From the NCBI GenBank assembly GCA_051362555.1, contig CM120649.1, positions 3,038,001 to 3,102,000 of the forward strand: 64,000 nt of DNA, in the 5' to 3' direction. The stretch comes from Lingula anatina (lineage: Eukaryota > Animalia > Brachiopoda). This document shows, piece by piece, positions 27,486 to 56,977 of this stretch. The notes under the pieces were generated by a model that did no database searches, had not been told where the DNA came from, and saw only the letters and a program-made list of their open reading frames with translations. A program made the position numbers and the translations under genes. Numbering within the stretch: position 1 is the stretch's first letter; each line of letters opens with the position of its first letter.

Positions 27486-27638
27486 TTGCTTGAAATGCAA
27501 CATCAGAAACTGTGAAATTATTGCGTACATTATTACAGTGACAGAAGAGAATTTTGTCATATTTAAAAAGAAAAAAAGAAAAATTAAATGGTTTATACTG
27601 GAAGTGGTTGTTCTTGTTGTTTTGTCTTAGTCACACGT

Positions 27639-29373
27639 TTATTAGTACCACCAGCGTATACGCTGGCGGTACTCATGGTTTTAGTCCCGGCCCGTCTCGT
27701 ACAGCTCCGCCGGCTCCGCCGGCTCCGCAGTCGGGCGCCGGAAACAAGTCACCGTTACCGCTTCTCCTCCTAGACCGCAAAGACCTGTCCCCATCTCTTG
27801 GATTTAGGTCACATATAATCTCAACTTGAACCCCCTGGTATTTTTGTCTCAGTTGGTGCATTGGTCTGGGTGTGATGTTCACTGAAATGCACCCTTGTCA
27901 AAATTTTTGAAAATTTGATGCTAAATATCTCCCAAACTGAAGGAATTATGGAAAAAGTTACTATAGAGGTCTGACCAAAAGTCATATATGGAGTTTCCAA
28001 ATATGCCCTTGGATTTGACATTTGACCTTTATTTCAAGGTCAAACAGGCCAAAATTTTCTAAAAATGGGAATTTTCTGCAAAAAAAGAATTGTTTGTGCC
28101 AATTTTCAGAAACTACATAGACCTAAGCTTTCATATTACAGTGAGGGCTACTATTTAGGGACTCCCTTCATCTTCGTGGGTTTGGGGTCAATCGGTGCAT
28201 TTTCACGGGAGAAGCAGTCATTTGATGCCAAAACTAAAAACTCTGTAATTGTGGAACTGTTTACACTAGAGACGTCTTGTTTTTTGCATGAAGTACAGCT
28301 TGTCAAGCACAATACTGGAGGTGGTGTCCATTTTCTTATTTTCCATACGGTTTAGGAGTTGCACATTATTAAATAGTACAACAATGCAATATTCAGTAGT
28401 TAACATAAAATGAAAAAATACTCCCAAAATTAGCAGAGATACACCCATAGCATTTGAATAGGAAGTCATTAACTAGCAATCTAACTGTGACCTTGATATT
28501 GACCTTTGACCTACTTTTCATGATGAACTTCACTTTGCAAGTTTTCTGGTCCTTATATCATCAAAACTAGCAGAGATACACCCATAGTTACCATTGAACT
28601 TGAATAGGAAGTGATATACTGACAATCTTAGAGCACATTCCCATAGATTAAGATCGATCTTACTTGATCGACCTAACTCCCTGCAGTTAGCCGACCACAC
28701 ACAGAATTTAATTATCCCCTTACAGCTTTTAGTAGGCAGGACAGGCACTTAAGCCAGCTAAGCTGACAGTAATCTAGTGAGACTCCCCATGGGGATAGAT
28801 CGATCTAAAATCTGTGGAAATGGGGTCTTACTGTAACTTTGAAATTAGCCTTTGACCTTCAAATTGATCTGTGACCTACTTTTCATAATGAACTGCACTA
28901 AAAAAAAATTCACTCCCTTATATCTCCAAAACTGGCAATAGTTGCTATTGATCTTGAATAGGAAGTCATATACTGGGAAACTTTTACTTTGAAATTGACC
29001 TTTGACCTATTTTTCACCATGAACTGTAGTTTGCAAATTTTCCCACCCTTATAAAATATGCTGACAGAGAAATGCCCATAGTTACTATTGAACTTTACCC
29101 AAATATAAACAAACTTTGAAATATTGTTTCCATTACAGTTAGAGAGGAAGTCCTACATTCACAATGATACTACATCCTTGTATTTGACCTTTAACTTTTT
29201 CCCACCTGATTTAAAAATATAATAATTATCTATAAAAAATGATAACCCTTGTTTACTGCATTTCATGCAGCTTGTCAACCCCTCCCCCTTCTTTTTCCTT
29301 CCCATTCGAATGTGCTTACTCCAGCTGGTGGTACAATACCAGGAGGCGGTATCGCCTCTCTGATCCTCTAGTT
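27639..29373. mobile_element. HINE family 2, copy 2 (opposite orientation to copy 1)
   Basis: Hairpin GTACCACCAGCG-TATA-CGCTGGCGGTAC, GCTCCGCCG repeats, core repeats and end CTCTGATCCTCTAGTT. Absent from the duplicated segment (~35450). Confidence 0.88.
28631..28827. mobile_element. PIF/Harbinger-type MITE nested in a HINE core repeat
   Basis: Inverted homolog of 16470-16669. It interrupts the core repeat at ATCTTA|CTGT with TTA duplicated. Confidence 0.75.
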
Positions 29374-30064
29374 TAGGAACTGAGGACACGCAAACTTGTC
29401 ATTTATCTGCAATGAATAGGCTCTTGAAATTATAATCACAATTATGAGTTAAACCAGTTAACCGGTCCAACTTTATAAACCCGATATTTGAATTGCCCTC
29501 CATTACTATACACATTTGCCGTCATCCAAGCGTCCAGAAATTGACGGCTACTTCATCCTGTCCATCTCCCTAACCATTAGAAGTCACTGGAGACTAGCCC
29601 CAACACGATATTGTCTGCAGGTCGCTGGAGTTTCCAAGAACGAGACATGCTGGTGATAAAGATAAGTTCCCAGAAAGTTCATGTGCATATCTCACTCTTA
29701 CACGCAAAAATATAGTATGATAAGTATAAACACAACATTTGGGAAACCAACGTGTTGTTTTTTGGGCAATAGCCTAATGAGATGTTTTTCATCTACATCA
29801 TTGAAGCAGAAGGGGCCCCCGAGTCCATTTCCGTGCTCCTTTTTGGGTACAATCATCATGCTTTTGAATATTGTTTTAAGTTCTTTTAGAGAATTCTGTC
29901 AAGGCTTTTCAGTGGCATAGTTAACACACAGTGAACTGCAAATTATATCTCTTCTATATGCCAGCATCATAATATCTTTATTCTTGCATATAATCCCATG
30001 CAGACTTTATATTACATGCCGTTATTTTGCCGTTGTCTTCTATAATGCAAGCATAACAGACAGA

Positions 30065-30625
30065 TTAAACAAAATCCCCACAGAAAATGCAGAAATAGTT
30101 CAGAAGGTAACGGCAGAGCGTTCCAGGCTTTATAGCGTCCCCATACGTTTTCGACAATCTGTTATATAGATGCACAGCAAATGACTCTTCGTTTACTGTG
30201 CCATTATCAAGGAAACATTCTCGTGTAACATTAGGCCACTCAATAGGATAAAACGATTGCCGATACAAACGTCTGACTATGCACGACTCTTCTTTGGATA
30301 GATCTTAGTAACTGCTGACGTCACGAGCCACGCGCGATGTTTTTTCGCCGCGCGGGTGAGAAGACTCGGCCCATTTGCCCCCCAAACGCTCTGATTATAG
30401 TGAACTAGGTAATTTTTAAAACAATCACGGAGAAATGGAGACTCACAACATGAAAACGGGTAGTGTGGTCTGATCTACCGGTGAATTCAGGATCATTCGG
30501 TGCCGAGTCTGGTAGTTGAGTAGGTCTGTCTACTTGAAAACCTGCTTCAGTGAACTCAGAAAACGCCTTTTGTGTCAAAGCTCAGAATGCGCACACTCGC
30601 ATTTGGATGGTGGAAAAAATATACT
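30065..30625 (-). pseudogene. Decayed C-terminal GT32 domain of glyco-enzyme copy A
   Basis: Lies after a premature TAG. It has a 5-nt deletion near 30580, and 300 bp including the DxD motif (36576-36875 in copy B) are replaced by an unrelated filler at 30440-30528. The tail ...NYFCIFCGDFV* is still recognisable. Confidence 0.85.
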
Positions 30626-32743
30626 CTACAGTGAACGGCGGTTTCGCTTAGTCTGATTCTTTGTTCCATACACTTGAAAGAAAACCGAACCAGTCGTTTC
30701 ATTTTGGTTAAATTGCCCGAATGTTTTAAAGGGAACGACCCCAAATGTTATCGCCGTTTCTCGTAATGCGCGTGATTTCCGTATCTCGTACCACATGGTG
30801 GCTCGAAAGCGCATGTATATTTCACGATTTGGATTCATTTCCGGTTTGTCCCAATTAAAGTTGTCCAGGCCTCTGTAGGTTTTCCTCGTACGGTCCACAG
30901 TCACTGTGTGAAAAAGTTCTGTTAAGCCCTCAGTTCGATGCCCGCCTCCTCCAGGTAAGACATCAGTTTCCACAAAAACTACTGGAATCCCCATGGCAAC
31001 GCATGGAAGCGCGCAATGGATACGCGAGGTTATAACTAATTTTGCGCGTGAGTATCTCTCTATCAAACTTTGTGCTTCTTCGTAGCGAGTTAATCTATCA
31101 AATTTCATCCAACTGGGTAGGTCATGTTTGACGTATATCGCCGATTTTCGTATGTGATACGGAACAATTAATTCTAAAGCGCGTTTGTTTACATTAACGA
31201 CAAATATGCCCTCTCTTTTAATGTTGGGATTGGGATTACGCATCAAAAGTGTCAAGCAGCCCGATTTAAATACTGAAAAGTTTTGGGATTTTAAGAAATT
31301 AAAAGTGACGTCATCACGAGCACCCACAGGGCCATGATGTCGAAGGTAATTTCTGCCCGGCTTAGTTAGTAGCTTCTTCCAGAAATTGGACCCAAAGTGC
31401 ATCGATATAATCAAAGGGTTTAGATTAACTTTTGGTGGCCATATCATGTTGCCGGCGTTATACCAACCATTTAGAAATATTGTGATTGGTTCTTTGAGTA
31501 TATTGGTTTGGTTGGAAACAATGAACCCTCTTCCATGCTGATCTTTCGTATCGCTTGTTTTAGATATATCATCACCGGCTGCATTTCGGTCCATGTACAA
31601 AGACCAATGTTTTTCCTTTTCATGGCTTTCTCTTTTACTGTTTGCTGCCCAAAAATTGTCAGTACCTTTCGACTGGACAGATGTTTTTACTACACTAGTG
31701 ACGTCCCAATTATCCCTGTCCACAAATAAATCAACAAAGGGAAGAAATTGTAGCCCTGCCAGAGTTTGAATCTCATCCCCAACGTTGCTGCCTCTTGTCA
31801 CATTCACCCGATGGTCAAAACTTAGGATTCCAAAGAGTTCATCTGGCCAAAAAGGTATTACAGAATCTCTACCGTTCTTTTCAATCTGTCTCTTATCTAC
31901 CTGGTTAAGAACTTTTGATTTCAGTAAGATTGAAGCTGTGTCCCAATTTTGGATTTGGCTTCTACTGCGACTGCTGTAGGCCGACTGAATCTCGATCATA
32001 GCATTTTGGACGAACAACGATTGTCGTTCGAACCTGGATACGAAAAAGATGCCTTTGGGGGACATCCATTCCCCCGTGAAATATTCATCTGGTAAATTTG
32101 ACGGGACTATTCTTCTTACATCTATGTAAAGTCCACCAAATGTCCACAGTGCAAGTAAAACACTTACTTCATGTACGACTGCCATAAATTTACGACCCAT
32201 GAGCAATTTCAGAATGGCGGATTTAGAGACAAAATCGTCCAGTGGTGTGCCCTGAGTCAACTCAGATAACAGTAAACGAAGTACTGTTACGTGTTTCCAT
32301 GACTTGGCGTCTATATGATCTATACATCCACTGCTTCCACACAGAAATACAACGCGTTTCCCTGGATTTAACCGGACGACGGTCTTTATTTTATCCATAA
32401 GCGTTTGTGGAATTGCGGCATAATGAGACCAGACCATGACAAAGTCTGAGGTCGCATTTTGATGTTGGCCCAAGTATTGTGGTGCTGCAGTTAACGCATC
32501 GCCTTTATAAGATGTGGGTACAGTAGATTTGGAGCCACCTGTCCGACCACTTGTAGATGGCCTGGCAAACGCCAAAAACTGTTTTAACTGGGTATGAGGG
32601 CCCTTCTGGTTCTCCCGGTAGATGATATCTCCGGATGTAGCAGACTGTTTTTTAGCCACCAAGTTGCCACTTGTGTTAACTTTCGTCACTGCTGACGGCA
32701 GGGCTGAGTTGGAATAAAAAGATATAATAATATAATAATAATG

Positions 32744-32812
<69 letters not shown>

Positions 32813-33202
32813 AGCACGCCAATACATGAACAATATTGGAACCTGAAAATGTACTTTTTATATATAAAAGCATCTTCTAATATGTTGAATAGCACATACC
32901 GACAATGGAATATTGGAGGCGAATCTACCAGAAACGTAACTAAAATTACAAATTAAATTCTGATTAAGAAGTCTATCTCAGTGGACTTGTTATTGGGTAT
33001 GCTGAACGTCCTGAATCTGATAGGCTTTCCTGTCCTTATATGTCTTCAATGGCGAATAATGTCCGCCCTTTAGCTTACTTTCAGTGCGGTTCATGAATTG
33101 GAAGGTGTAAATCAATGTCCCAATCACTAACAGCAGAACAGGCAGAAGGGATGTCTGCCAGCAACGAGGACATCTACGAAGACTCATCACTGTATATCTC
33201 AT
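30626..33202 (-). CDS. Truncated paralog (copy A): TM + degenerate GT32 + polysaccharide pyruvyltransferase-like domain, ~733 aa; possibly a pseudogene
   Basis: Exon 1 is 33079-33202 (MRYTVMS...LLPVLLLVIGTLIYTF, donor A|GTAAGC) and exon 2 is 30626-32703. Motifs NVGDEIQ, GARD, GCLTL and ITSRIHCALPCVAMGIPV are present. The stop TAG corresponds to GAG in copy B. Confidence 0.7.
32747..32807. repeat. (TA)n microsatellite in the copy A intron
   Basis: Long pure TA run, absent from the paralogous intron at ~39050. Confidence 0.95.
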
Positions 33203-33687
33203 CTTATAAATCCAAGGGAAAAGATCCTCAAAACATATGACGTGTGAATAATGGTTGTTGAAAAATAATTTATGATTCAACTTAGAAAACACTGTAACAC
33301 AGTAAATCATCGTAGTATTATTCTTCTAGCGTGCTCTAACATGTCCTGTCGTTAAGGGTATCGTCACCCTTCGCCCAAAACTTCTTCTTTACTGCTTTAC
33401 ATACATTGTTTTAGGTAATAAATAAATCGTCAGTGAGCAGCGAATAGATGAAGTAACATTTACACATATGTCATCTTAAGGGTGACGTCATAATTAATTG
33501 CGATTTTGGGGTAAAAACTGAAAAATCGGTTTTTCAAATTTCTTTTACCTAAGTACCCACAATAACCGTTTCAACGCCGATTTAATGACACTATTTCGTA
33601 CTCCAAAACCCTGCCAGCGATTTTTCTTAAAAGTCTTAGTTTAGATTTTATGATTGATAAAGCAAACTAATGCCCCAATTTGTTTAA

Positions 33688-34664
33688 AGACAGTCTCGGT
33701 GGGTTAGATTAATGTATAGAAGCAGGTTCTATGTAAAACTTTGGTCAGATTTGTGTTTTGTGAGATTGTTTATTATTATATTAATAAGTCTGGGTCACAA
33801 AAGTTCTGTTTAGACAACTAGAATAAAAAATTAGAAAACGAAAACTATTTATCATGATTTCGGAGCACAGCCGGAAGTACCTCCGGCTCAAGGTCACGAC
33901 CTCGATTTTCCCACGCTTACGACCAATCACAGCAGGTTTCAGTCAGAATGAGAAAGACGTCACGACTACAGAGCGAAACTTGTCAGACATGTAAATGCCG
34001 CCTGTCCACCTTTTCGGTACATGTACCGATCAAAAACAGAAAACGTAAAGCCCAAAACGCTCTTATACACGTAACCAACTTTGAATGAGCACAAATATTG
34101 TCATTTATTGTGAACAGGATAATATGATAATGAGACACACTTGAGACCTGTGAAGCGCATACTCACGTGTCGAGGAGTAGTTTCGCCATTGCCTCCTAAC
34201 TCAGCTTTAAGTGTCTTCCACCGCCCCACCTCCCTCCCAACATACACAGTCTGAGTGCTTCTTCGTCTGTCTCTAATTTTCTTTCGTATCTTTTGAACTG
34301 GAGTGGCTATTTTCTTTCCTTCCCTTTTCTCGCTCTCCTCTTCAGACTTGACGCGCGTCTCCATGTTTGCTGTTTTGGCGCCAAATAGTAACATCCGGGT
34401 CTCAGCCGTAGTACTTCATTCATAGTAAACCGCGAGACTTAGCGAGAAATTGCGCGTTCTGAAGCCGTACTGTGAGGTGGTAGCTGAGTATTTAAGACGA
34501 GTCGTCTTTTATTATTTAATGGAACTTAAAAACGGTATAAGGTAGCTTCATTTTCTGAACGGTTTTGGATAGGATATACCTTGGTCATTATGGGGAAATT
34601 GGTGAGATTTTCAGGAAAATTCATTTTCGTGCTATTTTAAGGGTTTAACGCGCTGAGACTGTCT
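33688..34664. mobile_element. Kolobok-like non-autonomous DNA transposon
   Basis: TTAA|AGACAGTCTCGG ... CTGAGACTGTCT|TTAA, giving a TTAA TSD with purine-purine termini. It sits inside a further TE-like tract that begins TTAA|GGGTATCGTCACCC at 33356. Confidence 0.7.
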
Positions 34665-35218
34665 TTAATGAAAATTTGTAATTAGGGGCTCACAACTTCA
34701 TAACAAAAATTTTTAACTCAAAATGGCGGCACGGGATTGTATTGTTTTTCTCCTGGACAAATATAATTCTATTCGGCTGACCGAAGTGAATTAGAATGGA
34801 ATTATTTTCTCCTAGGGGGCGACACTGTATACATTCGACCAGTTAGCGCAGACCAGTTGACACGTTAATTTTCCAGCGCGTATTTTTTCAATAATATCTA
34901 TGTATTTAAAAAAAAGCTTGGCTAGATTTAATCTAATCTTTAGGTTGTGCAGAAGCAAAAAATGGATTTGATTAAACTTAAATGTATTAAATTTTACTAT
35001 AAATTTTAAATGGCTGAAACTATACGTAGCACGCTGTTCAACGACAAAGTTACACGACAGTATGACAGCCTTGTAAGGCGAATTATCCGAGACAGTATAT
35101 ACGTTTTCATCTATTTTTCATCAAATCCTCAATAACAGAACACATTTCCATTGATTATTGATGGTTCAATGAACACGTTGAATCGATTTCCAAATTGTGA
35201 ACGTTTCCCCACTTTCAG

Positions 35219-35299
35219 GTCAGTCTCATAGCAGCCAGACGTACTGGTCGTATCAGGGGTACCAAGCAAATTACCGGCAAGGAAAACAAGAAAGAATAA
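35219..35299 (+). pseudogene. RPL8: Duplicated RPL8 terminal exon (fragment)
   Basis: TTTCAG|GTCAGTCTC... encodes [26 protein letters not shown], one amino acid different from 27405-27485. The 3'UTR and ATTAAA are retained. Confidence 0.9.
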
Positions 35300-36199
35300 T
35301 TGCTTAAAATGCAACATCAGAAACTGTGAAATTAATGCGTACATTATTACAGTGACAGAAGAGAATTTTGTCATATTAAAAAAGAAAAAAGAAAAATTAA
35401 ATGGTTAATACAGGAGTCGATTGTTGTTGTTATTTGTGTGCCAGTCAGTTTAATTTAGGAAGTTAGAATACTGTTATACATACTTGGCATATATGGGAAT
35501 CTGTTAATTTGGGAGGCTCTTGAAATAAGGAAAAGTGCACTCAATATTTTGTTTACTTGTGGTTGTCTTAAGTATTTTAAAGTTGCACAAAATTATAATC
35601 ACAATTATGAGTTTTAACCACTCCACCGTTGTAAACCCGATATTTGAATTGCCCTCCATTATATACATGTGCCGTCATCCAAGCGTCCAGAAATTGACGG
35701 CTACTTCATCCTGCCCATCTCCCTAACCATCAGAAGTCACTAGAGACTAGCCCCAACATGATAATATGTGCAGGTCGCTGGAGTTTCCAAGAACGAGACA
35801 TGCTGGTGATAAAGATAAGTTCTCAGAAATTTCATGCGCATATTTCACCCTTACACGCAAAAAATATAATATGATAAGTAACACAACATATGGGAAACCA
35901 ACGTTTTGTGTTTTGGGCAATAGCCAAATGGGATGTTTTTCATCTACGTCATTGAAGCAGAAAGGGCAGAGTCCACTTCCGTGATCCTTTTTGGGTACAA
36001 TCATTATGCTTGTGAATATTGTATTTACTTCTTTTAGAGAATTCCGTGGCATACCAAACGTGAACTGGAAATTATCTCTCTTATTCAAGCTATATGCCAG
36101 CATCATCAATATCTTTATTCTTGCATAATCCCATGCAGATTTTATATTACATGCCGTTATTTTGCCGTTGTCTTCTATAATGCAAGCATAACAGACAGA

Positions 36200-39100
36200 T
36201 TAAACAAAATCCCCACAGAAAATGCAGAAATAGTTCAGAAGGTAACGGCAGAGCGTTCCAGGCTTTGTAGCGTCCCCATACGCTTTCGACAATCTGTTAT
36301 ATAGATGTACAGCAAATGACTCTTCGTTTACTGTGCCTTTATGAAGGAAACATTCTCGTGTAACGTTAGGCCACTCAAAAGGATAAAACGATTGCTGATA
36401 CAAACGTCTGACTATGCACGACTCGTCTTTGGATACATCTTCATATCTGCTGACGTCACACAGCCACGTGCGATGTTTTCTCGCCACGCGGGTGAGAAGA
36501 CTCGGTCCATTTGCCGCCCAATCGCTCTGATTATAGTGAACAAGGTAATTTTTAATACACTCACGGAGAAATGGATTGTGCTTATCGAATTTCAGAACAG
36601 CCCCATTTAAGAGGGAGTTTTCATTGTTTTCCCATGCAGTAACATTATTCAGAACTTTTAAACTCTTTACTAAAATGACGTCAGTGTCCATGTAAACGCC
36701 ACCGTACTGATATAACAAGAGCAATCGTATCAAGTCAGTTTGGTGGCTATACCAATATGGTCCTTCTGAAATAACGGGCAATCTCTTCAAGAACGCTCTC
36801 GAGCAACCTCTAAAGGTGTGTGGTTCCAGATTTTCAATGCGCTTTAATAAGTTTTCAAGAGTATAGTTTTCGACTTCTACTTGAAAACCTGCTTCATTGA
36901 ACTCAGAAAACGCGTTTTGTGTCAAAGCATTGCTCAGAATGCGCACTTTCGCATTTGGATGGTGGTAAAATATACTCTCCAGTGAACGGCGGTTCCGCTT
37001 TGTCTGATTCTTTGTTGCGTACACTTGAAAGAACACTGAATCAGTTGTTTCATTTTGATTAAATTGCCCGAATGTTTTAAAGGGTACGACCCCAAATGTA
37101 ATCGCTGTTTCTCGTAATGCGCGGGATTTTCGTATCTCGTACCACAAAGTGGCTCGAAACCGCATGTATATTTCACGATTTGGATTCATTTCCGGTTTGT
37201 CCCAATTAAAGTTGTCCAGGCCTCTGTAGGTTTTCATCGTACGGTCCACAGTCACTGTGTGAAAAAGTTCTGTTAAGCCCTCAGTTCGACGCCCTCCACC
37301 TCCAGGTAAGACATCAGTTACCATAAAAACTACTGGAATTCCCATGGCAACGCATGGTAGCGCGCAATGGATACGCGAGGTTATAACTAATTTTGCGCGT
37401 GAGTATCTCTCCATCAAGCTTTGTGCTTCTTCGTAGCGTGTTAATCTATCAAATGTCATCCAACTGGGCAGATCGTGTTTGACGTATATTGCCGATTTTC
37501 GTATGTGATACGGAACAATTAATTCTAAAGCGCGTTTGTTTACATTAACGACAAATATGCCCTCTCTTTTAATGGTGGGATTGGGATTACGCATCAAAAG
37601 TGTCAAGCAGCCCGATTTATATACTGAAAAGTTTTGGGATTTTAGGAAATTAAAAGTGCCTTCATCACGAGCACCCACAGGGCCATGATGTCGAAGGTAA
37701 TTTCTGCCCGGCTCAGTTAGTAGCTTCTTCCAAAATTTGGACCCAAAGTGCATCGATAAAATCAAAGGGTTTAGATTAACTTTTGGTGGCCATATCATGT
37801 TGCGGTCGTTATACCAACCATTAAGAAATATTGTGATTTCTTTTTTGAGATTATTGGTTTCGTTGGAAACAATGAATCCTTTTCTATGCTGATTTTTTGT
37901 ATCGCTTGTTTTTGACATGTCATCACCGGCTGCATTTGGGTTTATGTACAAAGACCAATTTTTTGCCTTTCCATGACTTTCTCTTTTACTGTTTTCTTCC
38001 CAAAAATTTTCAGTATTCTCCGACTGGACAAATGTATTTACTACACTGGTGACGTTCCAAGTATCTCTGTCCACAAATAGGTCTACAAAGGGAAGAAATT
38101 GTAGCCCTGCCAGCGTTTGAATCTCATCCCCAACGTTGCCGACTCTCACCACATTCACCCGATGGTCAAAACTAAGAATCCCAAAGAGTTCATCTGACGA
38201 AATAGGTATTACAGAATCTCTACCGCTCTTTTCAATCTGTCTCTTATCTACCTGGTTTAGAACTTTTGATTTTAGTAAGATTGAAGCAGTGTCCCAATTT
38301 TGGATTTGACTGCGACTGCTGTAGGCCGACTGAATCTCGATCATAGCATTTTGGACGAACAACGATTGTCGTTCAAACCTGGATACGAAAAAGATGCCTT
38401 TGGTAGACATCCATTCCCCAGTGAAATATTCATCTGGTAAATTTGACGGCACTATTCTTCTTACATCTATGTAAAGTCCACCAAATGTCCACAGTGCAAG
38501 TAAAACACTTACTTCATGTACGACTGCCATAAATTTACGACCCATGAGCAATTTCAGAATGGCGGATTTAGAGACAAAATCGTCCAGTGGTGTGCCTTGA
38601 GTCAACTCAGATAACAGTAAACGAAGTACTGTTACGTGTTTCCATGACTTGGCGTCTATTTGATCTATACATCCACTGCTTCCACACAGAAATACAACGC
38701 GTTTCCCTGGATTTAACCGGACGACGGTCTCTATTTTATCCATAAGCGTTTGTGGAATTGCGGCATAATGCGACCAGACCATGACAAAGTGTTGTGGTGC
38801 TGCAGTTAACGCGTCCTCTTTATAAGATGTGGGTACAGGAGATTTGGAGCCACCGGTCATACCAGAAGTAGATGGCATGGCAGTCGCCAAAAACTGCTTT
38901 AACTGGGTATGAAGGCCTTTCCTGTTCTCCCGGTAGATGGTTTCTCCGGACTGCATCTTAGCCACCAAATTGCCACTTGTGGTAACTTTCGTCACTGCTG
39001 ACGGCAGGGCTGAGTTGGAATAAAAAGATGTAATAATATAATAGTAATAAAATATAGGCCTATATGTAAAATGAGCACGTCAATACATGAACAATATTGG

Positions 39101-39456
39101 AACCTGAAATGTACTTTTTATATATAAAAGCATTTTCAAGTATGCCCATACCATAAACTGGCTGCAATATTGCAGGCGAATCTACCAGAAACGTTATTAA
39201 AACTACAAATTAAATTCTGATTAAGAAGCCGTAACTATCTCAATGGTCTTGCAATTGCGTATGCTGAACTTCCTGAATCTGATAGGCTTTCCTGTTCTAA
39301 TAAATATAATGGCGAATAATGGAAGCCCTTTAGCTTACCTTCAAACCGGTTCATGAAGGTGTAAATCAATGTTCCAGTCACTAACAGCAGAAAAGGCAGA
39401 AGGGATGTCCGCCTGCAACGAAAACATCTACGAAGACTCATCACCCTAGGTCTCAT
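36200..39456 (-). CDS. Type II membrane multidomain glyco-enzyme (copy B): degenerate GT32 + polysaccharide pyruvyltransferase-like + GT32 (A4GALT/A4GNT-like alpha-1,4-glycosyltransferase), ~975 aa
   Basis: Exon 1 is 39339-39456 (short basic tail + TM LLPFLLLVTGTLIYTF, donor G|GTAAGC) and exon 2 is 36200-39009; the join is in frame. Motifs: LALWTFGGLYID (GT32-like); NVGDEIQ, GARD and TSRIHCALPCVAMGIP (PS_pyruv_trans); SLESIFYHHP, DLIRLLLLYQYGGVYMDTDV, WAANGPSLLTR and AVHLYN (GT32/Gb3 synthase). Confidence 0.85.
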
Positions 39457-41421
39457 CTTACCATACGCCATGGAGGCAGACGAAGTGATAAATCCGAGGG
39501 AAAAGATCCTCAAAATAAATGACGTATCACGTGCACGGAGCTGCTGGTGTTATGTGAATAATGCATAACGAGTGTTGAAAATCATTTATGATTCAACATA
39601 AGAAACACTTTGACACGGAGAATCATCGTAGTTCTTCTTCTAGCGCTAATCCTACCGTCATTAATGCCTTCGTCGCCTGCGCACTTGTTACTTACCTTAC
39701 TTGGAGAGCAATATTTGGAAGCAATGTGGTGTAGCTGCGCAAAACAAGAAGACATACACAAACTACAAAAGCATGGCGGAAGAATCATTCTCGATATCCC
39801 AGGAAAGGAAGCCAAGAACCATCCATCAATCGAGCTAATTATAAAAGTGGACTGTCAAATAATTTATGAACGAATAAAATTTAAGAAAGCGACACTTGTT
39901 TTCACATCAGTAAATGACTTTCGAAAAAACGTATTAGGGACTTTCTCGATCGGTACTACAATAATTGACATTACGGGAAGAATCACCAGATCAAGTAATA
40001 TAGTTAATTTTTATTTGCCGATTGGCATGAACATAAAGACATACTAAAGATGCAATATGGGTGGAAATATGGAACTGTATTAACTCTGAAATTAGGCCTA
40101 ATAACTTCGGAGACTTGTACGTACATTTAAAAAATGTACGTAGACCCCGTATTTAAAAAATCAAAAATACTTTTTATGTTATGTAGCTTTTACGTTTTTT
40201 GACTAAATGTTTTTTATTTATAATTTAATTTTTTTTAATCATAGGCCTGAGTATATATAAGCCCGTGCCACCAAATTAGCCATAGGCCTACTATGATAGT
40301 ATTAGCAATGGACCATATTGAAGCTCGATCTTTCCTTTTTTAAGAACCCTTTTTGTCCTTTACAAAACATTTCCTAATTAAAAATGTAACTATTATAACT
40401 GGAAATGAATTATGTAAATATGCAACAGCATGTGGATAACCATGATAATTAAAAAAGGAGAGTTTTAATTATTATTGTAAATATTTTGGGCACCAAAGGG
40501 TGCGTTTGGTCTTGTGTAAAGTGGTAAATTAACGTAGCCGTAACTTGGCAAAAATTACACAATTGCACAACCATAATAACTGACTAGTGTATTTCAGAAA
40601 GAAATATCAGCATCTGACACTTATATTTGAGGGTGTTCATCATTTAAAAACCTGTTGAGAGGGGATCTCGGAAAGATGAAGAGCTCTTGTCTTGGGTGAG
40701 TCACTTTTGTTCCTCCTATTACTGAAGAAACTCACGCTGCCGCAAATAGACTTCGAACTTTTGATAAATTCTGGCGAGTTTTAGGGTAAGCACTTAATGT
40801 TATACTGTATTTATTTGGCAGAACACTTAGAACAATGAACTCACTGTAGTGCATGATTATCAATTTTGCACACCGAAAATTAAGATAAATCTTGGTCCGG
40901 CTTTCCCTCTTGAATCGTTACGCCGCCAGCACATCTTCTCTGATATATACACATACTGTTGTGCTAACGCACAAAAGGCAAAGACTCAGCTTTGGAATGC
41001 CGACTAGCTTCTGCATCCAGCATGATGCTGGGGGCTCTCAAAGTTCCTCAATTCGCACATTTCTGTAAACCCAACCAGTTTCCCTACGGGTACACGCCAC
41101 TCACCGACGAGTAAACAGCTACTCACTGTAACTGTAGTGTTAGCTTGAATGATAAACTAAAAATCAAGGTGTAATGGAGAGCATATGAACTCCAAACGAC
41201 GCTTAAATTTCTAGCTTCGAGAGTTTGTAACACAGGGTATTATGATCGAGGCCTCATACCAGCTGTAAGACAGAAAAAAAACATGCCAATGATTTGTGGC
41301 TTATATTAATTCTATCATATATGCAGACGTTGATGCATAATGCAACACATTGCTCTTTAATGGGTCAGGGCAAATACCTGCATTTAAAGAAGCTGATAGT
41401 GAAAATAGTGATTTATAATGA

Positions 41422-51742: not shown

Positions 51743-51828
51743 GTAGAAACTCAGCGACGATTTAGTGAAAGATAGTAGAAACTGAGCGACGATTTAGTGA
51801 AAGACGATCAGCATAGTATTTAGAAAAG

Positions 51829-54800
51829 ATGGCAACACAAGCAGAAATGATACTGCTGCAAGCAGAACTGAAAAGGGTAGAGTCGCATATAGATCAAACC
51901 ATGTGTGAGTTGGAAAAGCATTTTAATTTCACAAAGTCAAATATAAAAAAGACATCTACGCCCAAAAATGCACTAACATCTTGTGCCCCACTCACTTTGT
52001 GTGAGCAAACTACGATAGCAAAGGAACTCAGTAAACCAAGAATTCAGATTCAAGTATTTGAAGGTGACCCGATCAAATATGTGCTGTTTAAGAGACAGTT
52101 CAAAAGTAGAATCATAGAAACATGCGACTCTGACGATGAAAAACTGAACTATCTACTGCAATACACCAGAGGTGAGCCTCATGAAATTACGCTAGGTTTC
52201 GCTCACTTAGATGCAACCATTGGTTTCAAGGCCGCATGGAAGGAATTTGAGAGAAGGTATGGGGACCAAGAACAGATTGCGACATCGTATATAAACCGTG
52301 CCTTACAGTGGCCAGTGATAAAGCATGATGATTATGTCGCATTAGACAAATACGGCATATTTTTAAGGGAATGTGAATATGCAGTAAAAGAAATAGATGC
52401 CATTCCAGTCCTCGAGTATCCCGATAACCTTAAGAGGCTAATGACGAAGCTGCCGCTCAAATTGCATGATAAATGGAGAAGCATAGTATATGAAAGGAAG
52501 GAAAGGGGACAGAAGATAACCTTTCAGGTTTTCGTCGATTTTGTGCAGAAAGAAGCACGAAAATTGGCTGACCCCATTTTTGGAAAGGTTCCACCGCCAC
52601 CAGAGAGACCTATACCAGCACCAAGGAGAAGAGTTCCAACACAAACAGTACTGTCTAGTACCTCTGCATCCAGCAACGAAAGACACGTTCACAAGTGTAT
52701 ATTATGCAAGGAACAACATAAACTTCACCAATGCCCAGAAATGCAAGAAAAGACAATGGATGAAAGACTCAGCATTATAAAGAATAATGGTTTATGTTTT
52801 GGGTGCCTTGCATATGGTCACAGAAAACATGAATGCAGAAGTAAAATGAAATGCCAAAAATGTAACTCTTATCATCCAACAATTCTACACGATGACAATT
52901 ACACTAGTAAAGTAGTGGGAGCAGCTGTATGCCATACCACCCACAGTTCTGAGAATGTGCATTCCATGATAGTGCCAGTTGTAGTGCACCACGAGGATAA
53001 TCCAGACATTTATTCAGTGGTATATGCAGTACTAGACGAGCAGTCAGATGCCTGCTTTGTAAAGTCCTCGACCCTCAGTGAACTCGAATGTAAAGGGAAG
53101 CATGTAGACATCAGACTTTCAACCATACTTGGAGAAAAAACCGTCCCGAGCAGGAAAGTTAGAGGACTTGTTGTGAGAGGTCTGAACCAAGAGACATTGA
53201 TTGAGCTCCCAGATACATACTCCAGAGACTCCATTCCAGTTAAGCGATCACAGATACCCAGACCAGAAACTGCTAAGAAATGGCCACACTTGCACTCAAT
53301 TGCTGATAAGATTACTCCTTATCGCCCAGACATAGAGGTAGGACTGCTGTTGGGAGTAAACTGTATGAAAGCCATTAGAGGTCTGGAGTACATACATGGT
53401 AGAGGAGAGGAGCCATATGCATACAGATGTAACCTAGGTTGGGGTATAGTAGGGCCAGTGGACAAATCAAGACCCATAGATGAGAACAAGAGCTTTGGAA
53501 CACATGCCTTTGCCTTTAGAACACAAGTGACAGAGATCAGCCCCGCTGAGGTTTGCAGTCTCTTTGACCAAGGTTTCGACCAACAGAAAGATGAGAAGTT
53601 AAGCCTTCAAGACCAGAAGTTCATGAAGATTATGGAGGAGGGCATACATTTCAACGAGGGTTTTTACGAGATGCCACTACCATTTAAAGATGGACATCCA
53701 GCATTGCCAAACAACAAACCAGCAGCTGAGATCAGGCTAGAGCAGCTAAGGAAAAGGCTAATCCACAACCCGAAGTATTATGAGCACTATAACAGTTTTA
53801 TGCAGGACCTCATAGATAAATGCTATGCAGAAGAATCACCTCATGAAGATGGAGGTTGGTACTTACCACATCATGGTGTATATCACCCCAAGAAACGTGA
53901 GAAATTACGAGTGGTGTTTGATGCCAGTGCAAAACATGAAAATGTTGCGCTAAACGACTGCCTGTTGAAAAGACCTGATCAGAATAACTCGCTCATAGGT
54001 GTTTTATTGAGGTTTAGAGAGCAGCCAGTAGCAATCATGGGTGACATGGAGAACATGTTTCACAGGTTTAAAGTGAAAGAAGAGGATAGAAAGTTTTTAC
54101 AGTTCCTATGGTGGAAAGACGGTGACCTCAGTAGTAATCCCATCACATACAGAATGACGTCTCATATATTTGGAGCGATAAGTTCACCAGCATGCGCATT
54201 GTATGGACTGAGGAAACTAGCAGAGGACTACCAAGATGAGTATTCACCAGACGTCATTGCCTTTCTTAAGAATGACTTTTATGTAGACGATGGACTCAAG
54301 AGCATTGAGTCAAGTGAAGAAGCTATACGTCTTGTTAGAGAAACAAGAGAGCTGCTGAACAAAGGTAACCTAAGACTTCACAAGCTAGTATCAAACAACC
54401 GTGAAGTGATGAATACAATCCCAATGTCAGAGAGAGCCAAAGAAATGAGAAACATTGACCTTAACAGAGACACATTGCCAATATGCCCAGCTTTAGGAGT
54501 ACAGTGGTGTGTAGAAGCGGACAGTTTTCAGTTTAAGGTCCAGATCAATGATAAGCCATTAACAAGAAGGGGAATTCTCTCCACTGTAAGTTCCATATTT
54601 GACCCTTTAGGCCTTGTCTCACCATTCATCCTTGCCGGTAAGAAAATTCTCCAAGAGCTATGCAGAGACGGTGCAGAGTGGGATGATCAAGTGCCAGAGA
54701 GTATTAGATGCAGATGGGAAAGATGGCGCTCAGATTTGCTGAACTTAACCAAGTTGAATATACCACGGTGCTATAAGCCAAATGATTTTGGTGAAGTGAC

Positions 54801-55809
54801 TACTGCAGAACTTCATCACTTCTCAGATGCCAGTGTAGAAGGCCTAGGTCAGTGTAGTTACTTGAGACTTAAAAGCAACACAGGAAGAATAGCAACCACA
54901 TTAGTTATGGGCAAGTCCAAGGTAGCTCCCTCTAAACCAGTGACAGTCCCACGCCTAGAGTTGTCAGCAGCAGTGATGTCTATAAAGGTGGGGACCTTTC
55001 TTGCCAAGGAGTTAGAGTATGAGGACATCACCCATGTGTATTGGACTGACAGCAAAGTTGTTCTAGGGTATGTCAATAATGATGCTAAGAGATTTCATGT
55101 CTTTGTAGCAAATAGAATACAACAAATTAGAGAAGTCAGTCAGCCATCCCAATGGAGGCATGTTAAGTCCAGTGACAACCCAGCTGATATAGTCTCCAGG
55201 GGAACAGGTGTGACAGAGCTACTACAGAATGAACAGTGGTGGAGTGGGCCAGACTTTCTGCGCATTGATGAACCACTATCTACCACTGATACCCAATTCA
55301 GACTAGCACCAGATGACCCAGAAGTACGCAAATCTGAAGTCAATGTATTTGCTACTAAAGTAGAAACCAACCACGATCACTTGTCTGATGTATTGAAAAG
55401 GTTTTCTTCCTGGAACAGAGCAACACGAGTTGTTACGTGGTGTTTACGATTCATACAGAAGCTGAAACAAGCTAAGAACAGGAAATCTACACAGCAGAAC
55501 ACAGTTGAGACCAGCAATGAACCGTTGAATGTTCAAGAAATACAAGTGGCAGAAAAGATCATTCTCAAGTCAACACAGATTGCTACATTTGAGAAGGAAA
55601 TTGCAATACTGAAAGCAATTAACAGAGAAGATAACAGTGAACACACAGAGAGAAAACAGGCAAGATATCGCAACGAACAAATCAAGAAAACCAGTTCACT
55701 ATACCGCCTAGACCCATTTTTATGTGAAGATGGACTACTCAGAGTAGGTGGTCGTATAAAGAGGGCAAATCTACCCAGAGAGCTTACACACCCAGTGTAT
55801 TCTGCCTAA
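51829..55809 (+). CDS. BEL/Pao gag-pol polyprotein, part 1 (Gag with three Cys/His knuckles, aspartic protease, RT, RNase H)
   Basis: FEGDP, CILC..H..C / CFGC..H..C / CQKC..H, AVLDEQSD, FYVDD, HHFSDAS, WTDS, DNPAD. Ends at a frameshift near 55797. Confidence 0.95.
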   Translation: MATQAEMILLQAELKRVESHIDQTMCELEKHFNFTKSNIKKTSTPKNALTSCAPLTLCEQTTIAKELSKPRIQIQVFEGDPIKYVLFKRQFKSRIIETCDSDDEKLNYLLQYTRGEPHEITLGFAHLDATIGFKAAWKEFERRYGDQEQIATSYINRALQWPVIKHDDYVALDKYGIFLRECEYAVKEIDAIPVLEYPDNLKRLMTKLPLKLHDKWRSIVYERKERGQKITFQVFVDFVQKEARKLADPIFGKVPPPPERPIPAPRRRVPTQTVLSSTSASSNERHVHKCILCKEQHKLHQCPEMQEKTMDERLSIIKNNGLCFGCLAYGHRKHECRSKMKCQKCNSYHPTILHDDNYTSKVVGAAVCHTTHSSENVHSMIVPVVVHHEDNPDIYSVVYAVLDEQSDACFVKSSTLSELECKGKHVDIRLSTILGEKTVPSRKVRGLVVRGLNQETLIELPDTYSRDSIPVKRSQIPRPETAKKWPHLHSIADKITPYRPDIEVGLLLGVNCMKAIRGLEYIHGRGEEPYAYRCNLGWGIVGPVDKSRPIDENKSFGTHAFAFRTQVTEISPAEVCSLFDQGFDQQKDEKLSLQDQKFMKIMEEGIHFNEGFYEMPLPFKDGHPALPNNKPAAEIRLEQLRKRLIHNPKYYEHYNSFMQDLIDKCYAEESPHEDGGWYLPHHGVYHPKKREKLRVVFDASAKHENVALNDCLLKRPDQNNSLIGVLLRFREQPVAIMGDMENMFHRFKVKEEDRKFLQFLWWKDGDLSSNPITYRMTSHIFGAISSPACALYGLRKLAEDYQDEYSPDVIAFLKNDFYVDDGLKSIESSEEAIRLVRETRELLNKGNLRLHKLVSNNREVMNTIPMSERAKEMRNIDLNRDTLPICPALGVQWCVEADSFQFKVQINDKPLTRRGILSTVSSIFDPLGLVSPFILAGKKILQELCRDGAEWDDQVPESIRCRWERWRSDLLNLTKLNIPRCYKPNDFGEVTTAELHHFSDASVEGLGQCSYLRLKSNTGRIATTLVMGKSKVAPSKPVTVPRLELSAAVMSIKVGTFLAKELEYEDITHVYWTDSKVVLGYVNNDAKRFHVFVANRIQQIREVSQPSQWRHVKSSDNPADIVSRGTGVTELLQNEQWWSGPDFLRIDEPLSTTDTQFRLAPDDPEVRKSEVNVFATKVETNHDHLSDVLKRFSSWNRATRVVTWCLRFIQKLKQAKNRKSTQQNTVETSNEPLNVQEIQVAEKIILKSTQIATFEKEIAILKAINREDNSEHTERKQARYRNEQIKKTSSLYRLDPFLCEDGLLRVGGRIKRANLPRELTHPVYSA

Positions 55810-56977
55810 GCATCATCACGTTACAAATCTCATAATTGACCACTATCATACACGATGCGGACATTCAGGAAGTGGCATTACTCTTAATGAAGTCCGAGCT
55901 AGTGGTTATTGGATAATTTCTGGCCGTGCCAAGATTGGATCATATATATGGAAATGTGTGACCTGTCGTAAGCTACGAGCAAACTCACAGAGTCAGAAAA
56001 TGTCAGATCTTCCAGCTGACAGACTGGAACCAGCACCTCCATTCACCTACAGTGCAGTAGATTTCTTTGGACCATTCTATGTGAAGGAGGGAAGAAAGCA
56101 GATGAAGAGATATGGTGCTATGTTTACATGTTTAGCATCACGTGCTATTCATATAGAAGTTGCATATTCACTCAGCACAGATTCTTTCATTAACTGCTAC
56201 AGACGCTTTGTATGCAGGCGTGGACCAGTACGTCTACTCAGAGCAGACCGTGGAACCAATTTCATTGGAGTTAAGGGAGAGCAAGAAACTGCCTTTATGG
56301 ATATGGATCAGGACAAGATCAGGAGAGAACTTCTGAAAGACCACTGTGACTGGATTCAGTTTGAAATGAATGTTCCTCATGCTTCACATATGGGAGGCGT
56401 GTGGGAAAGGATGATCAGATCAGCCAGAAATGCTTTATCGGGACTTCTCACAGCTCACAGTGACCGTTTAGATGATGATTCCTTGTCCACATTGTTAACT
56501 GAGGCAGAAGCCATAGTTAACAGTAGACCTTTGACTTACATTGATACACAGTCACCAGATTCTCCAATGCCTTTGTCTCCAAATCAGCTCCTGACCCTGA
56601 AAACTAAGGTCGTGATGCCACCACCTGGGAATTTCATAAGGAAAGACACATACCTTCATCGAAGATGGCGACATGTTCAATATCTAGCCAATGAATTTTG
56701 GAACAGGTGGAGAAAGGAATTTCTTCCTACATTACAAGAGAGAAAAAAGTGGATCAAACAATGTAGAGATGTACAAGTTGGAGATATTGTTCTCATGATA
56801 GATGACAGTGCACCAAGAAATCAGTGGCCACTTGGTCGCATAACAGAAACCTTTCAAAGTGCAGATGGATATGTGCGTAAGGTCAAGTTGAAAGTTAGGG
56901 ACTCTACATATGAGAGACCAGTGCACAAGTTAATTCTTTTATTGACCGGAGAAGACCCCGTCGAGGAGCCAAAATAA
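55798..56977 (+). CDS. BEL/Pao integrase (frameshifted continuation of pol)
   Basis: ILPK...DHYH...GH...C..C zinc finger, then VDFFGP, RADRGTNF, GGVWERMI and the C-terminal WPLGRI/RPVHKL motifs. Confidence 0.93.

What the first reader, a model, noticed from the sequence alone, without database searches (positions are those of the whole stretch)
36200..39456. Animal Golgi-type fusion of a polysaccharide pyruvyltransferase-like domain between two GT32 domains
Seen: a type II membrane anchor on a small exon is spliced to a 2.8-kb uninterrupted exon. That exon encodes a degenerate GT32 module (GGLYIDVR, incomplete DxD), a PS_pyruv_trans-like module and a complete GT32 module (YMDTD). Known: ketal pyruvyltransferases are typical of bacteria (CsaB/WcaK-like), fission yeast Pvg1 and some giant viruses. 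Pyruvylated glycans are rare in animals, with sponge aggregation factor the classic case. GT32 includes A4GALT and A4GNT. Inference: a coupled 'add sugar then pyruvylate' enzyme making an anionic, sialic-acid-like cap. The intronless catalytic exon among intron-rich neighbours suggests horizontal or retro origin with a recruited TM exon.
Basis: partly seen in the sequence, partly recalled or inferred. Interest (0 to 1): 0.82.

Follow-up and report, generated by a model that had tools for sequence, protein, structure and literature searches.

The report
Animal Golgi sugar-pyruvylating enzyme family
A gene of a Lingula-like animal encodes a predicted membrane-anchored, three-domain protein whose middle domain has the predicted fold and the active-site motifs of enzymes that put pyruvate on sugars, so it likely caps Golgi glycans with pyruvate; relatives in a starfish, a hydroid and an amoeba carry a likely phosphoenolpyruvate importer on the same chain, which makes the family a testable candidate source of the pyruvylated sugars known from sponges and sea hares.

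Summary
The anatomy is confirmed. A 133-nt anchor exon joins in frame (GT..AG) to a 2,810-nt exon encoding a DxD-less GT32-like domain, a PF04230 domain and an intact GT32 domain. The middle domain keeps all three published ketal-pyruvyltransferase motifs, and its model matches Pvg1p (Z 13.6-13.9) and WbbZ (Z 12.6). It is not a one-off: 96 of 162 relatives examined share the three-domain core. 54 of 162 also carry an N-terminal phosphate-translocator (TPT) domain, including Acanthaster, Hydractinia and Balamuthia. The transporter's phosphate-binding residues are kept in 26 of 30 relatives with intact pyruvyltransferase motifs against 5 of 21 without (not significant after allowing for kinship). 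Strict 'add sugar, then pyruvylate' coupling is doubtful: 55 of 83 relatives keep the motifs of only one domain, and the tandem copy next door has lost its GT32. Recent bacterial transfer or retroposition is not supported; relatives in animal-like contigs are intronless too. This Lingula-type subfamily falls outside the cnidarian/echinoderm clade, so a protist donor or ancient paralogy remains open. Expression is trace-level in 7 RNA runs, with no junction read. No activity has been measured.

The parts
39339..39471 (-). Exon 1: ATG, basic/Cys cytosolic tail and predicted type II membrane anchor (residues 22-40, 39352-39408)
   Evidence: same N-terminus in Lingula model P0127
39010..39338 (-). 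329-nt phase-1 GT..AG intron
   Evidence: splice sites conserved in the tandem copy; no junction read
36200..39009 (-). Exon 2: 2,810 nt uninterrupted, holding the stem and three domains, with the stop
38243..38794 (-). N-terminal GT32-like (GT-A) domain without DxD (GGLYIDVR at 38459-38482), likely non-catalytic, strongly conserved
   Evidence: hhalign 98.4% to the C-terminal domain; model and fold match; dN/dS 0.13 between tandem copies
37088..38194 (-). PF04230 ketal-pyruvyltransferase domain: NxGD 38126-38137, RxxxT 37655-37669, SRIH 37367-37378; low-confidence insert about 37871-38008
36203..37045 (-). C-terminal GT32 domain with DxD (YMDTD 36680-36694) and HLYN (36296-36310)
   Evidence: Pfam PF04488 and PF04572; GT-A fold Z 16.2, Och1 Z 14.2
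36114..36119 (-). Candidate polyadenylation hexamer about 80 nt after the stop
   Evidence: pattern match only
33079..33202 (-). Tandem copy, exon 1 (anchor)
30626..32703 (-). Tandem copy, exon 2: intact N-terminal and pyruvyltransferase domains, stop at 30626-30628 (733-aa product)
   Evidence: core dN/dS against copy 1 is 0.23 (bootstrap 0.14-0.36)
30066..30625 (-). Tandem copy, decayed GT32 remnant (frameshifting indels, a block replaced by a short repeat-like stretch)
   Evidence: high depth at about 30450-30525

Best explanation
The gene encodes a predicted type II Golgi membrane protein whose middle domain likely transfers pyruvate from phosphoenolpyruvate onto a terminal sugar (likely beta-galactose) as an acidic ketal cap, flanked by a likely inactive GT32-like domain and a likely active GT32 glycosyltransferase. 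Shown: gene structure, domain order, motifs and purifying selection on the first two domains. Predicted: folds. Inferred: Golgi location, PEP as donor, galactose as acceptor. The likely ancestral form carries its own TPT-family PEP importer in front of the anchor; this subfamily lacks it and would need a separate Golgi PEP transporter, as Pvg1p needs Pet1p/Pet2p. The two catalytic domains likely work on the same class of glycan but need not act in series. An alpha-1,4 sugar and a 4,6- or 3,4-ketal both use O4 of galactose, so they may be alternative caps.
For: Pfam PF04230 E 1.5e-17. Model pLDDT 86, pTM 0.86. Among the top 50 of 48,161 chains, the only rows aligned to the middle domain are Pvg1p 5ax7 (Z 13.6, rmsd 4.7, 249 aligned) and WbbZ 6x1l (Z 12.6, rmsd 4.2, 209 aligned), both proven ketal pyruvyltransferases. 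The motifs NxGD, RxxxS/T and H named in PMC10629545 (passages) are present as N336-V-G-D339, R492-D-E-G-T496 and R590-I-H592; TSRIH aligns to Pvg1p TDRLH. 54 of 162 relatives carry a TPT domain. Pfam confirmed it in 3 of the 24 proteins scanned; TIGR00817 matched 3 of 3 TPT-fused proteins tested, below cut-off. The family profile hits translocator 5y78 at E 1.8e-18 and aligns its K204, Y339, K362 and R363 positions. An extra membrane helix follows the TPT in 45 of 53. The K-K-R triad is kept in 26 of 30 with intact PvT motifs against 5 of 21 without (Fisher p 8e-6). An ESM Atlas cluster of 60 has PF04230 97% plus TPT 93%, commonest phylum Mollusca (score 0.79, a lead). Pyruvylated beta-Gal is reported from Aplysia and Microciona.
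Against: No activity has been measured. Identity to Pvg1p and WbbZ is only 13-15%, and the closer bacterial subfamily is named by domain only. Expression is trace-level: mean depth at most 0.87 in any bin over the gene in 7 RNA runs, none in 2 of 7, no junction read, while the neighbouring ribosomal-protein gene gave 110-920 reads per junction. The TPT correlation rests on 6 independent pairs (3.4 the same way, 0.0 opposite, median sign-test p 0.25); one truncated protein (P0243) was counted among the 21. This protein has no TPT, and none lies in the window. The anchor's hydrophobicity is modest (1.69). I found no report of pyruvylated glycans in brachiopods (one search returned 0 papers).
Confidence: 0.7

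Rival explanations
1. Strictly coupled two-step capping: the GT32 adds a sugar and the middle domain pyruvylates that same sugar.
For: 27 of 83 relatives, including this one, keep both motif sets. Separate pyruvyltransferase and GT32-like ORFs are neighbours in 9 of 80 prokaryotic loci and 1 of 14 viral loci. Bacterial PF04230 + Caps_synth/Gly_transf_sug clusters exist.
Against: 55 of 83 keep only one motif set. The tandem copy and Lingula P0002 and P0003 stop at or near the start of the GT32 while the pyruvyltransferase stays intact. The Pfam family is the alpha-1,4 type, whereas the eukaryotic pyruvylated sugars with a stated anomer in the review's table are beta-Gal.
Confidence: 0.2
2. The PF04230 domain uses PEP or another phosphorylated donor for different chemistry (another acidic substituent), or only binds glycan.
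For: Low identity to proven enzymes. TPT carriers move several phosphorylated substrates (PMC-held preprint 10.1101/206912, passages). No NCBIfam model matches the window protein.
Against: All three ketal-pyruvyltransferase motifs are intact. PEP supply by Golgi transporters is the known arrangement for Pvg1p.
Confidence: 0.15
3. The locus is a silent or decaying duplicate with no present function.
For: Trace RNA only. The neighbouring copy is broken in its GT32, and broken tandem copies also occur in a relative (L003).
Against: Open 980-aa frame with intact motifs. dN/dS between the two copies is 0.23 (0.14-0.36) over 487 core codons, against 0.63 in the stem and insert. The few reads in stranded runs X11 and X13 are sense. 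Tissue and stage of the runs are unknown.
Confidence: 0.12
4. Origin: the Lingula-type subfamily came from a protist by gene transfer, rather than being an ancient paralogue lost in other animals. This concerns origin only and is compatible with the best explanation.
For: It falls outside the clade holding Acanthaster, Hydractinia and Actinia in both maximum-likelihood data sets. In the pyruvyltransferase-only tree it sits in an 11-row set (SH-aLRT 96) with Balamuthia and Bolivina. An AU test rejects joining it to the animal clade (p 6.6e-7, 20 rows, LG+G4, group named after seeing the tree). Its anchor lies on a separate exon, whereas sister proteins carry the anchor in the same predicted protein.
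Against: The nearest sisters (P0004, P0006, P0007, P0175, P0193, P0009-P0011) have no taxon on record and could be animals. Branches are long (about 30% identity), Bolivina is compositionally deviant, and a FastTree tree of 88 rows placed this group sister to the animal clade. The mixture-model AU test did not finish.
Confidence: 0.3

Closest known systems
Schizosaccharomyces pombe Pvg1p (PDB 5AX7) with the Golgi PEP transporters Pet1p/Pet2p
   Same: Golgi membrane ketal pyruvyltransferase; same predicted fold (Z 13.6-13.9) and the NxGD / R / RxH motifs; needs lumenal PEP.
   Different: Pvg1p is a single catalytic domain at 13% identity with separate transporters. Here it is flanked by two GT32-type domains, and many relatives fuse the transporter.
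Klebsiella pneumoniae WbbZ (PDB 6X1L); CsaB and WcfO
   Same: Fold match to WbbZ Z 12.6; the three motifs defined on WbbZ are present.
   Different: These are bacterial stand-alone enzymes; WbbZ works beside a separate polymerase, WbbY. No anchor, no GT32.
GT32 alpha-1,4-glycosyltransferases (PF04488 + PF04572; A4GALT and A4GNT, names recalled) and Och1
   Same: The C-terminal domain passes both Pfam cut-offs, has DxD, and matches Och1 at Z 14.2.
   Different: It is fused behind two other domains; donor and acceptor are unknown; it is lost or DxD-less in many relatives.
Uncharacterised Lingula anatina LOC106160056, LOC106160055, LOC106160029, LOC112042473
   Same: 55-67% identity and the same layout; three lie on contigs of the same length, likely one tandem array.
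   Different: Annotated only as uncharacterised; three of the four are truncated before or within the GT32.
Bacterial and giant-virus 'polysaccharide pyruvyl transferase family' proteins (Mimivirus L143 is called putative in PMC9614988)
   Same: 30-38% identity over the middle domain; sometimes next to, or by Atlas clusters fused with, a GT32-like gene.
   Different: 0 of 80 prokaryotic and 0 of 14 viral loci had the GT32 fused by my profiles; none had the N-terminal domain; they form a separate side of the tree (support 71). L143 itself was not compared.

Membership tests
Ketal pyruvyltransferases (PF04230; Pvg1p/WbbZ/CsaB/WcfO) | Pfam PS_pyruv_trans above gathering score | tested here: met
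   64.9 bits against 25.3, profile positions 1-278 of 280
Ketal pyruvyltransferases (PF04230; Pvg1p/WbbZ/CsaB/WcfO) | Two-Rossmann GT-B-like fold as in Pvg1p and WbbZ | tested here: met
   Predicted model: 5ax7 Z 13.6-13.9, 6x1l Z 12.6
Ketal pyruvyltransferases (PF04230; Pvg1p/WbbZ/CsaB/WcfO) | Motifs NxGD, RxxxS/T and H | tested here: met
   N336-D339, R492-T496, R590/H592. Matched by sequence; only the last was aligned directly to Pvg1p.
Ketal pyruvyltransferases (PF04230; Pvg1p/WbbZ/CsaB/WcfO) | PEP-dependent ketal formation on a sugar | not testable with these tools
   needs an assay
GT32 (C-terminal domain) | PF04488 + PF04572, DxD and GT-A fold | tested here: met
   YMDTD at 817-821
GT32 (C-terminal domain) | Metal-dependent alpha-glycosyl transfer from a nucleotide sugar | not testable with these tools
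   needs an assay
GT32 (N-terminal domain) | GT-A fold and homology to GT32 | tested here: met
   hhalign 98.4%; GT-A matches Z up to 14.8
GT32 (N-terminal domain) | DxD motif and Pfam match | tested here: not met
   D-V-R; no Pfam hit at E<=1; D-x-D in 4 of 110 alignment rows
TPT-fused eukaryotic form of this family | N-terminal TPT/PF03151 domain | tested here: not met
   No TPT match in six frames of the window; the rest of the genome is not held
Type II Golgi glycosyltransferases | Short basic tail plus one N-terminal membrane helix | tested here: inconclusive
   Hydropathy 1.69 at 22-40; splice not seen in reads; location untested
Recent bacterial transfer | Nesting among prokaryotic homologues | tested here: not met

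The most novel reading that the evidence does not exclude
Invertebrates have a self-contained Golgi pyruvylation machine: one chain with a plastid-type PEP importer, a pyruvyltransferase and a glycosyltransferase, present in cnidarians, echinoderms, molluscs and probably sponges. It makes the pyruvylated epitopes of sponge aggregation factor and Aplysia nerve glycolipids, so pyruvate is a widespread, overlooked sialic-acid-like cap in animals. The Lingula lineage uses a separate, transporter-less subfamily, possibly taken from a protist.
Probability: 0.45. Interest if true: 0.82.

Novelty: new variant of a known kind. Interest (0 to 1): 0.64.

Why it matters
Two reviews (PMC6801904 and PMC6994554, passages read) list pyruvylated glycans in a sponge and a sea hare; in those passages the only eukaryotic enzyme named is fission-yeast Pvg1p. 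This family supplies concrete, clonable candidates, with a built-in clue to the donor in the fused translocator. That makes the origin of the sponge self-recognition epitope directly testable and predicts pyruvylated glycans in starfish, cnidarians and brachiopods. The window's gene is a transporter-less member with both motif sets intact, which suits a first assay.

Tried and rejected
No whole genome is held, so copy number, synteny and a separate PEP transporter could not be checked. No RNA holder was listed by the run search. A single-sequence PDB search found nothing; the profiles hit Pvg1p only weakly (E 0.069; E 0.006). NCBIfam gave no family for the window protein. Taxa of the sister sequences: 30 look-ups named 4. 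The one metagenome scan did not return the sister loci. The 41-row mixture-model AU test did not finish; only a 20-row LG+G4 test did. Summed DNA contig depth over both copies was 280-620 against about 90 at the ribosomal-protein gene; the tool warns that this is no copy number, so I do not use it. Contamination is rejected: the gene has a spliceosomal intron, a tandem copy and Lingula relatives, and DNA runs of three studies hold 37-83% of its words (one may be the source). GC3 of 0.42 against 0.46-0.62 in three neighbouring exons is too weak to use. Literature: of ten searches, seven bore on animal enzymes and none listed a paper describing an animal pyruvyltransferase or the TPT fusion; most subscription journals are not in the library and no supplements were read. 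No complex prediction was run.

Full report
Observation. The minus strand carries a 133-nt exon (39471-39339), a 329-nt phase-1 GT..AG intron and a 2,810-nt exon (39009-36200), together an open 980-aa frame. Residues 22-40 are hydrophobic behind RRCFRCRR. Pfam gives PS_pyruv_trans at exon-2 residues 291-564 (E 1.5e-17), Gly_transf_sug at 671-787 and Gb3_synth at 807-931. The N-terminal module is homologous to the C-terminal one (hhalign 98.4%), folds as GT-A on its own (pLDDT 95.8; Z up to 14.8, rmsd 3.1, 178 aligned), lacks DxD and ends before the HLYN strand.

Surroundings. The neighbours look like ordinary animal genes: a DDX3-like helicase, a ribosomal protein L8-like gene and an esterase D-like exon (these three names recalled from motifs), a PID-domain exon and a Bel/Pao-like retroelement (recalled). 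The closest named proteins are from Lingula anatina at 55-67% identity, including the cytosolic tail and anchor. The organism is therefore probably Lingula or a close relative; this is inferred. A tandem copy at 33202-30626 keeps both splice sites and encodes 733 aa: anchor, N-terminal domain and pyruvyltransferase, then a stop and a decayed GT32. Between the copies dN/dS is 0.13 in the N-terminal domain, 0.27 in the pyruvyltransferase core, 0.23 over both (bootstrap 0.14-0.36, 487 codons) and 0.63 in the stem and the insert. The DxD-less domain is thus the most constrained part, though its lower dS (0.09 against 0.15) leaves room for gene conversion.

The middle domain. The AlphaFold model from a 110-row alignment has pLDDT 86 and pTM 0.86. 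Among the top 50 of 48,161 chains, the rows aligned to the middle domain are Pvg1p (Z 13.6) and WbbZ (Z 12.6) (Pvg1p Z 13.9). PMC10629545 (passages) defines NxGD, RxxxS/T and H as the conserved motifs; all are present (N336-D339, R492-T496, H592). PMC4872226 and PMC10435577 (passages) assign D106, R217, R337 and H339 of Pvg1p to acceptor and PEP binding, and the TSRIH/TDRLH match is direct.

The family. A profile search of 1.84 billion representatives gave 1,767 hits at E<=1e-30, of which the best 150 were listed. I classified 162 proteins (the 24 plus 138 others) with profiles built from my own alignment. 96 of 162 have the three-domain core, some with only a partial last domain, and 54 of 162 carry an N-terminal TPT domain. 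Named TPT-fused members are Acanthaster planci, Hydractinia symbiolongicarpus and Balamuthia mandrillaris; an Actinia tenebrosa fragment and a Bolivina argentea protein lack it as recorded. An Atlas cluster of 60 eukaryotic proteins, commonest phylum Mollusca, pairs PF04230 with TPT (score 0.79, a lead). Many unnamed TPT-fused members may be sponge host DNA in metagenome assemblies; that is a guess. Three such loci are single ORFs of 1,128-1,186 aa, and the two I read lie beside intron-containing kinase and F-box-like genes, so lack of introns is a family trait.

The transporter clue. The family profile matches the translocator 5y78 (E 1.8e-18) and lines up the residues that preprint 10.1101/206912 (passages) names as phosphate-binding: K204, Y339, K362, R363. 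An extra membrane helix follows the TPT in 45 of 53 proteins, which would put the catalytic domains in the lumen. The K-K-R triad survives in 26 of 30 proteins with intact pyruvyltransferase motifs and in 5 of 21 without (Fisher p 8e-6; 1 of 52 dropped as uncovered, and one truncated protein counted among the 21). On the tree this reduces to 6 independent pairs, 3.4 the same way and 0.0 opposite, median p 0.25: suggestive only. Pvg1p depends on the Golgi PEP transporters Pet1p and Pet2p. The window has no TPT.

Coupling. Of 83 alignment rows (of 110) covering both domains, 27 keep both motif sets, 29 only the pyruvyltransferase set, 26 only DxD and 1 neither. The search itself favours proteins that keep something, so the rarity of 'neither' is partly built in. 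Still, each activity survives without the other, which argues against an obligate two-step enzyme. By inference, an alpha-1,4 sugar and a 4,6- or 3,4-ketal both need O4 of galactose and could be alternative caps.

Origin. Prokaryotic and viral homologues are stand-alone in my loci: 0 of the best 80 of 569 prokaryotic matches and 0 of 14 viral loci are fused, while 9 and 1 have an adjacent GT32-like ORF. Atlas clusters show that bacterial fusions exist. They score 177 and 143 bits against 305 for the best non-Lingula family member, and fall on the other side of the tree (support 71). Recent bacterial transfer is not supported. The window and Lingula proteins do not join the clade of Acanthaster, Hydractinia and Actinia (SH-aLRT 98 for that clade in a 41-row tree; AU p 6.6e-7 in a 20-row, post hoc LG+G4 test); an 88-row FastTree tree made their group sister to it. 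Their nearest sisters have no taxon on record. I put ancient paralogy at about 0.6, protist-to-animal transfer at 0.3, and bacterial or retro origin at 0.1.

Expression. Seven RNA runs of the same species label were laid, 6-26% of each. Mean depth over the gene was at most 0.87 per bin and zero in 2 of 7; reads in stranded X11 and X13 were sense, X12 had both directions; none crossed the junction. The ribosomal-protein control gave 110-920 reads per junction in the three runs that included it. Tissue and stage are unknown, and reads could come from paralogues.

What is known. PMC6801904 and PMC6994554 (passages) report pyruvylated beta-Gal in Aplysia glycolipid and Microciona proteoglycan; those passages name no animal enzyme. 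PMC9614988 (passages) calls Mimivirus L143 putative. Seven searches aimed at animal enzymes (listings only) showed no paper on this family or its TPT fusion; the library lacks most subscription journals. Earlier scan notes held nothing on this sequence.

Verdict. A real, intact, weakly expressed member of an apparently undescribed eukaryote-wide multidomain pyruvyltransferase family: likely function 0.7, a new variant of a known kind, interest 0.64.

Noticed in passing
window 30066-33202: Tandem copy that has lost only its C-terminal GT32; Lingula P0002 and P0003 end at nearly the same point, suggesting repeated trimming to a pyruvyltransferase-only enzyme.
   Followed up: yes
P0005, P0160, P0187, P0194; L001 8873-12433; L003 5858-9358: TPT-family transporter fused in front of the three-domain core: a possible self-feeding Golgi PEP importer and enzyme.
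   Followed up: partly
L003 2113-4634: A second, broken tandem copy beside an intact TPT-fused gene in an animal-like contig, next to a mariner-like transposase.
   Followed up: no
L008 4854-6579: Giant-virus-like contig with a pyruvyltransferase ORF directly followed by a GT32/Caps_synth-like ORF, near tandem major-capsid-like genes.
   Followed up: partly
window 35217-35361: A short stretch between the two copies is covered by hundreds of stranded RNA reads whose loose ends lie elsewhere; probably a repeat or a fragment of another transcript.
   Followed up: no
window 27600-29400 and 33450-34670: High-copy repeat zones flank the two copies (very high DNA contig depth).
   Followed up: no
window 51817-56977: Near-intact Bel/Pao-like retroelement ORFs (name recalled from motifs).
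   Followed up: no
P0238: A relative with a different N-terminal domain that looks like a GT8 glycosyltransferase (by eye, untested) in place of the TPT.
   Followed up: no
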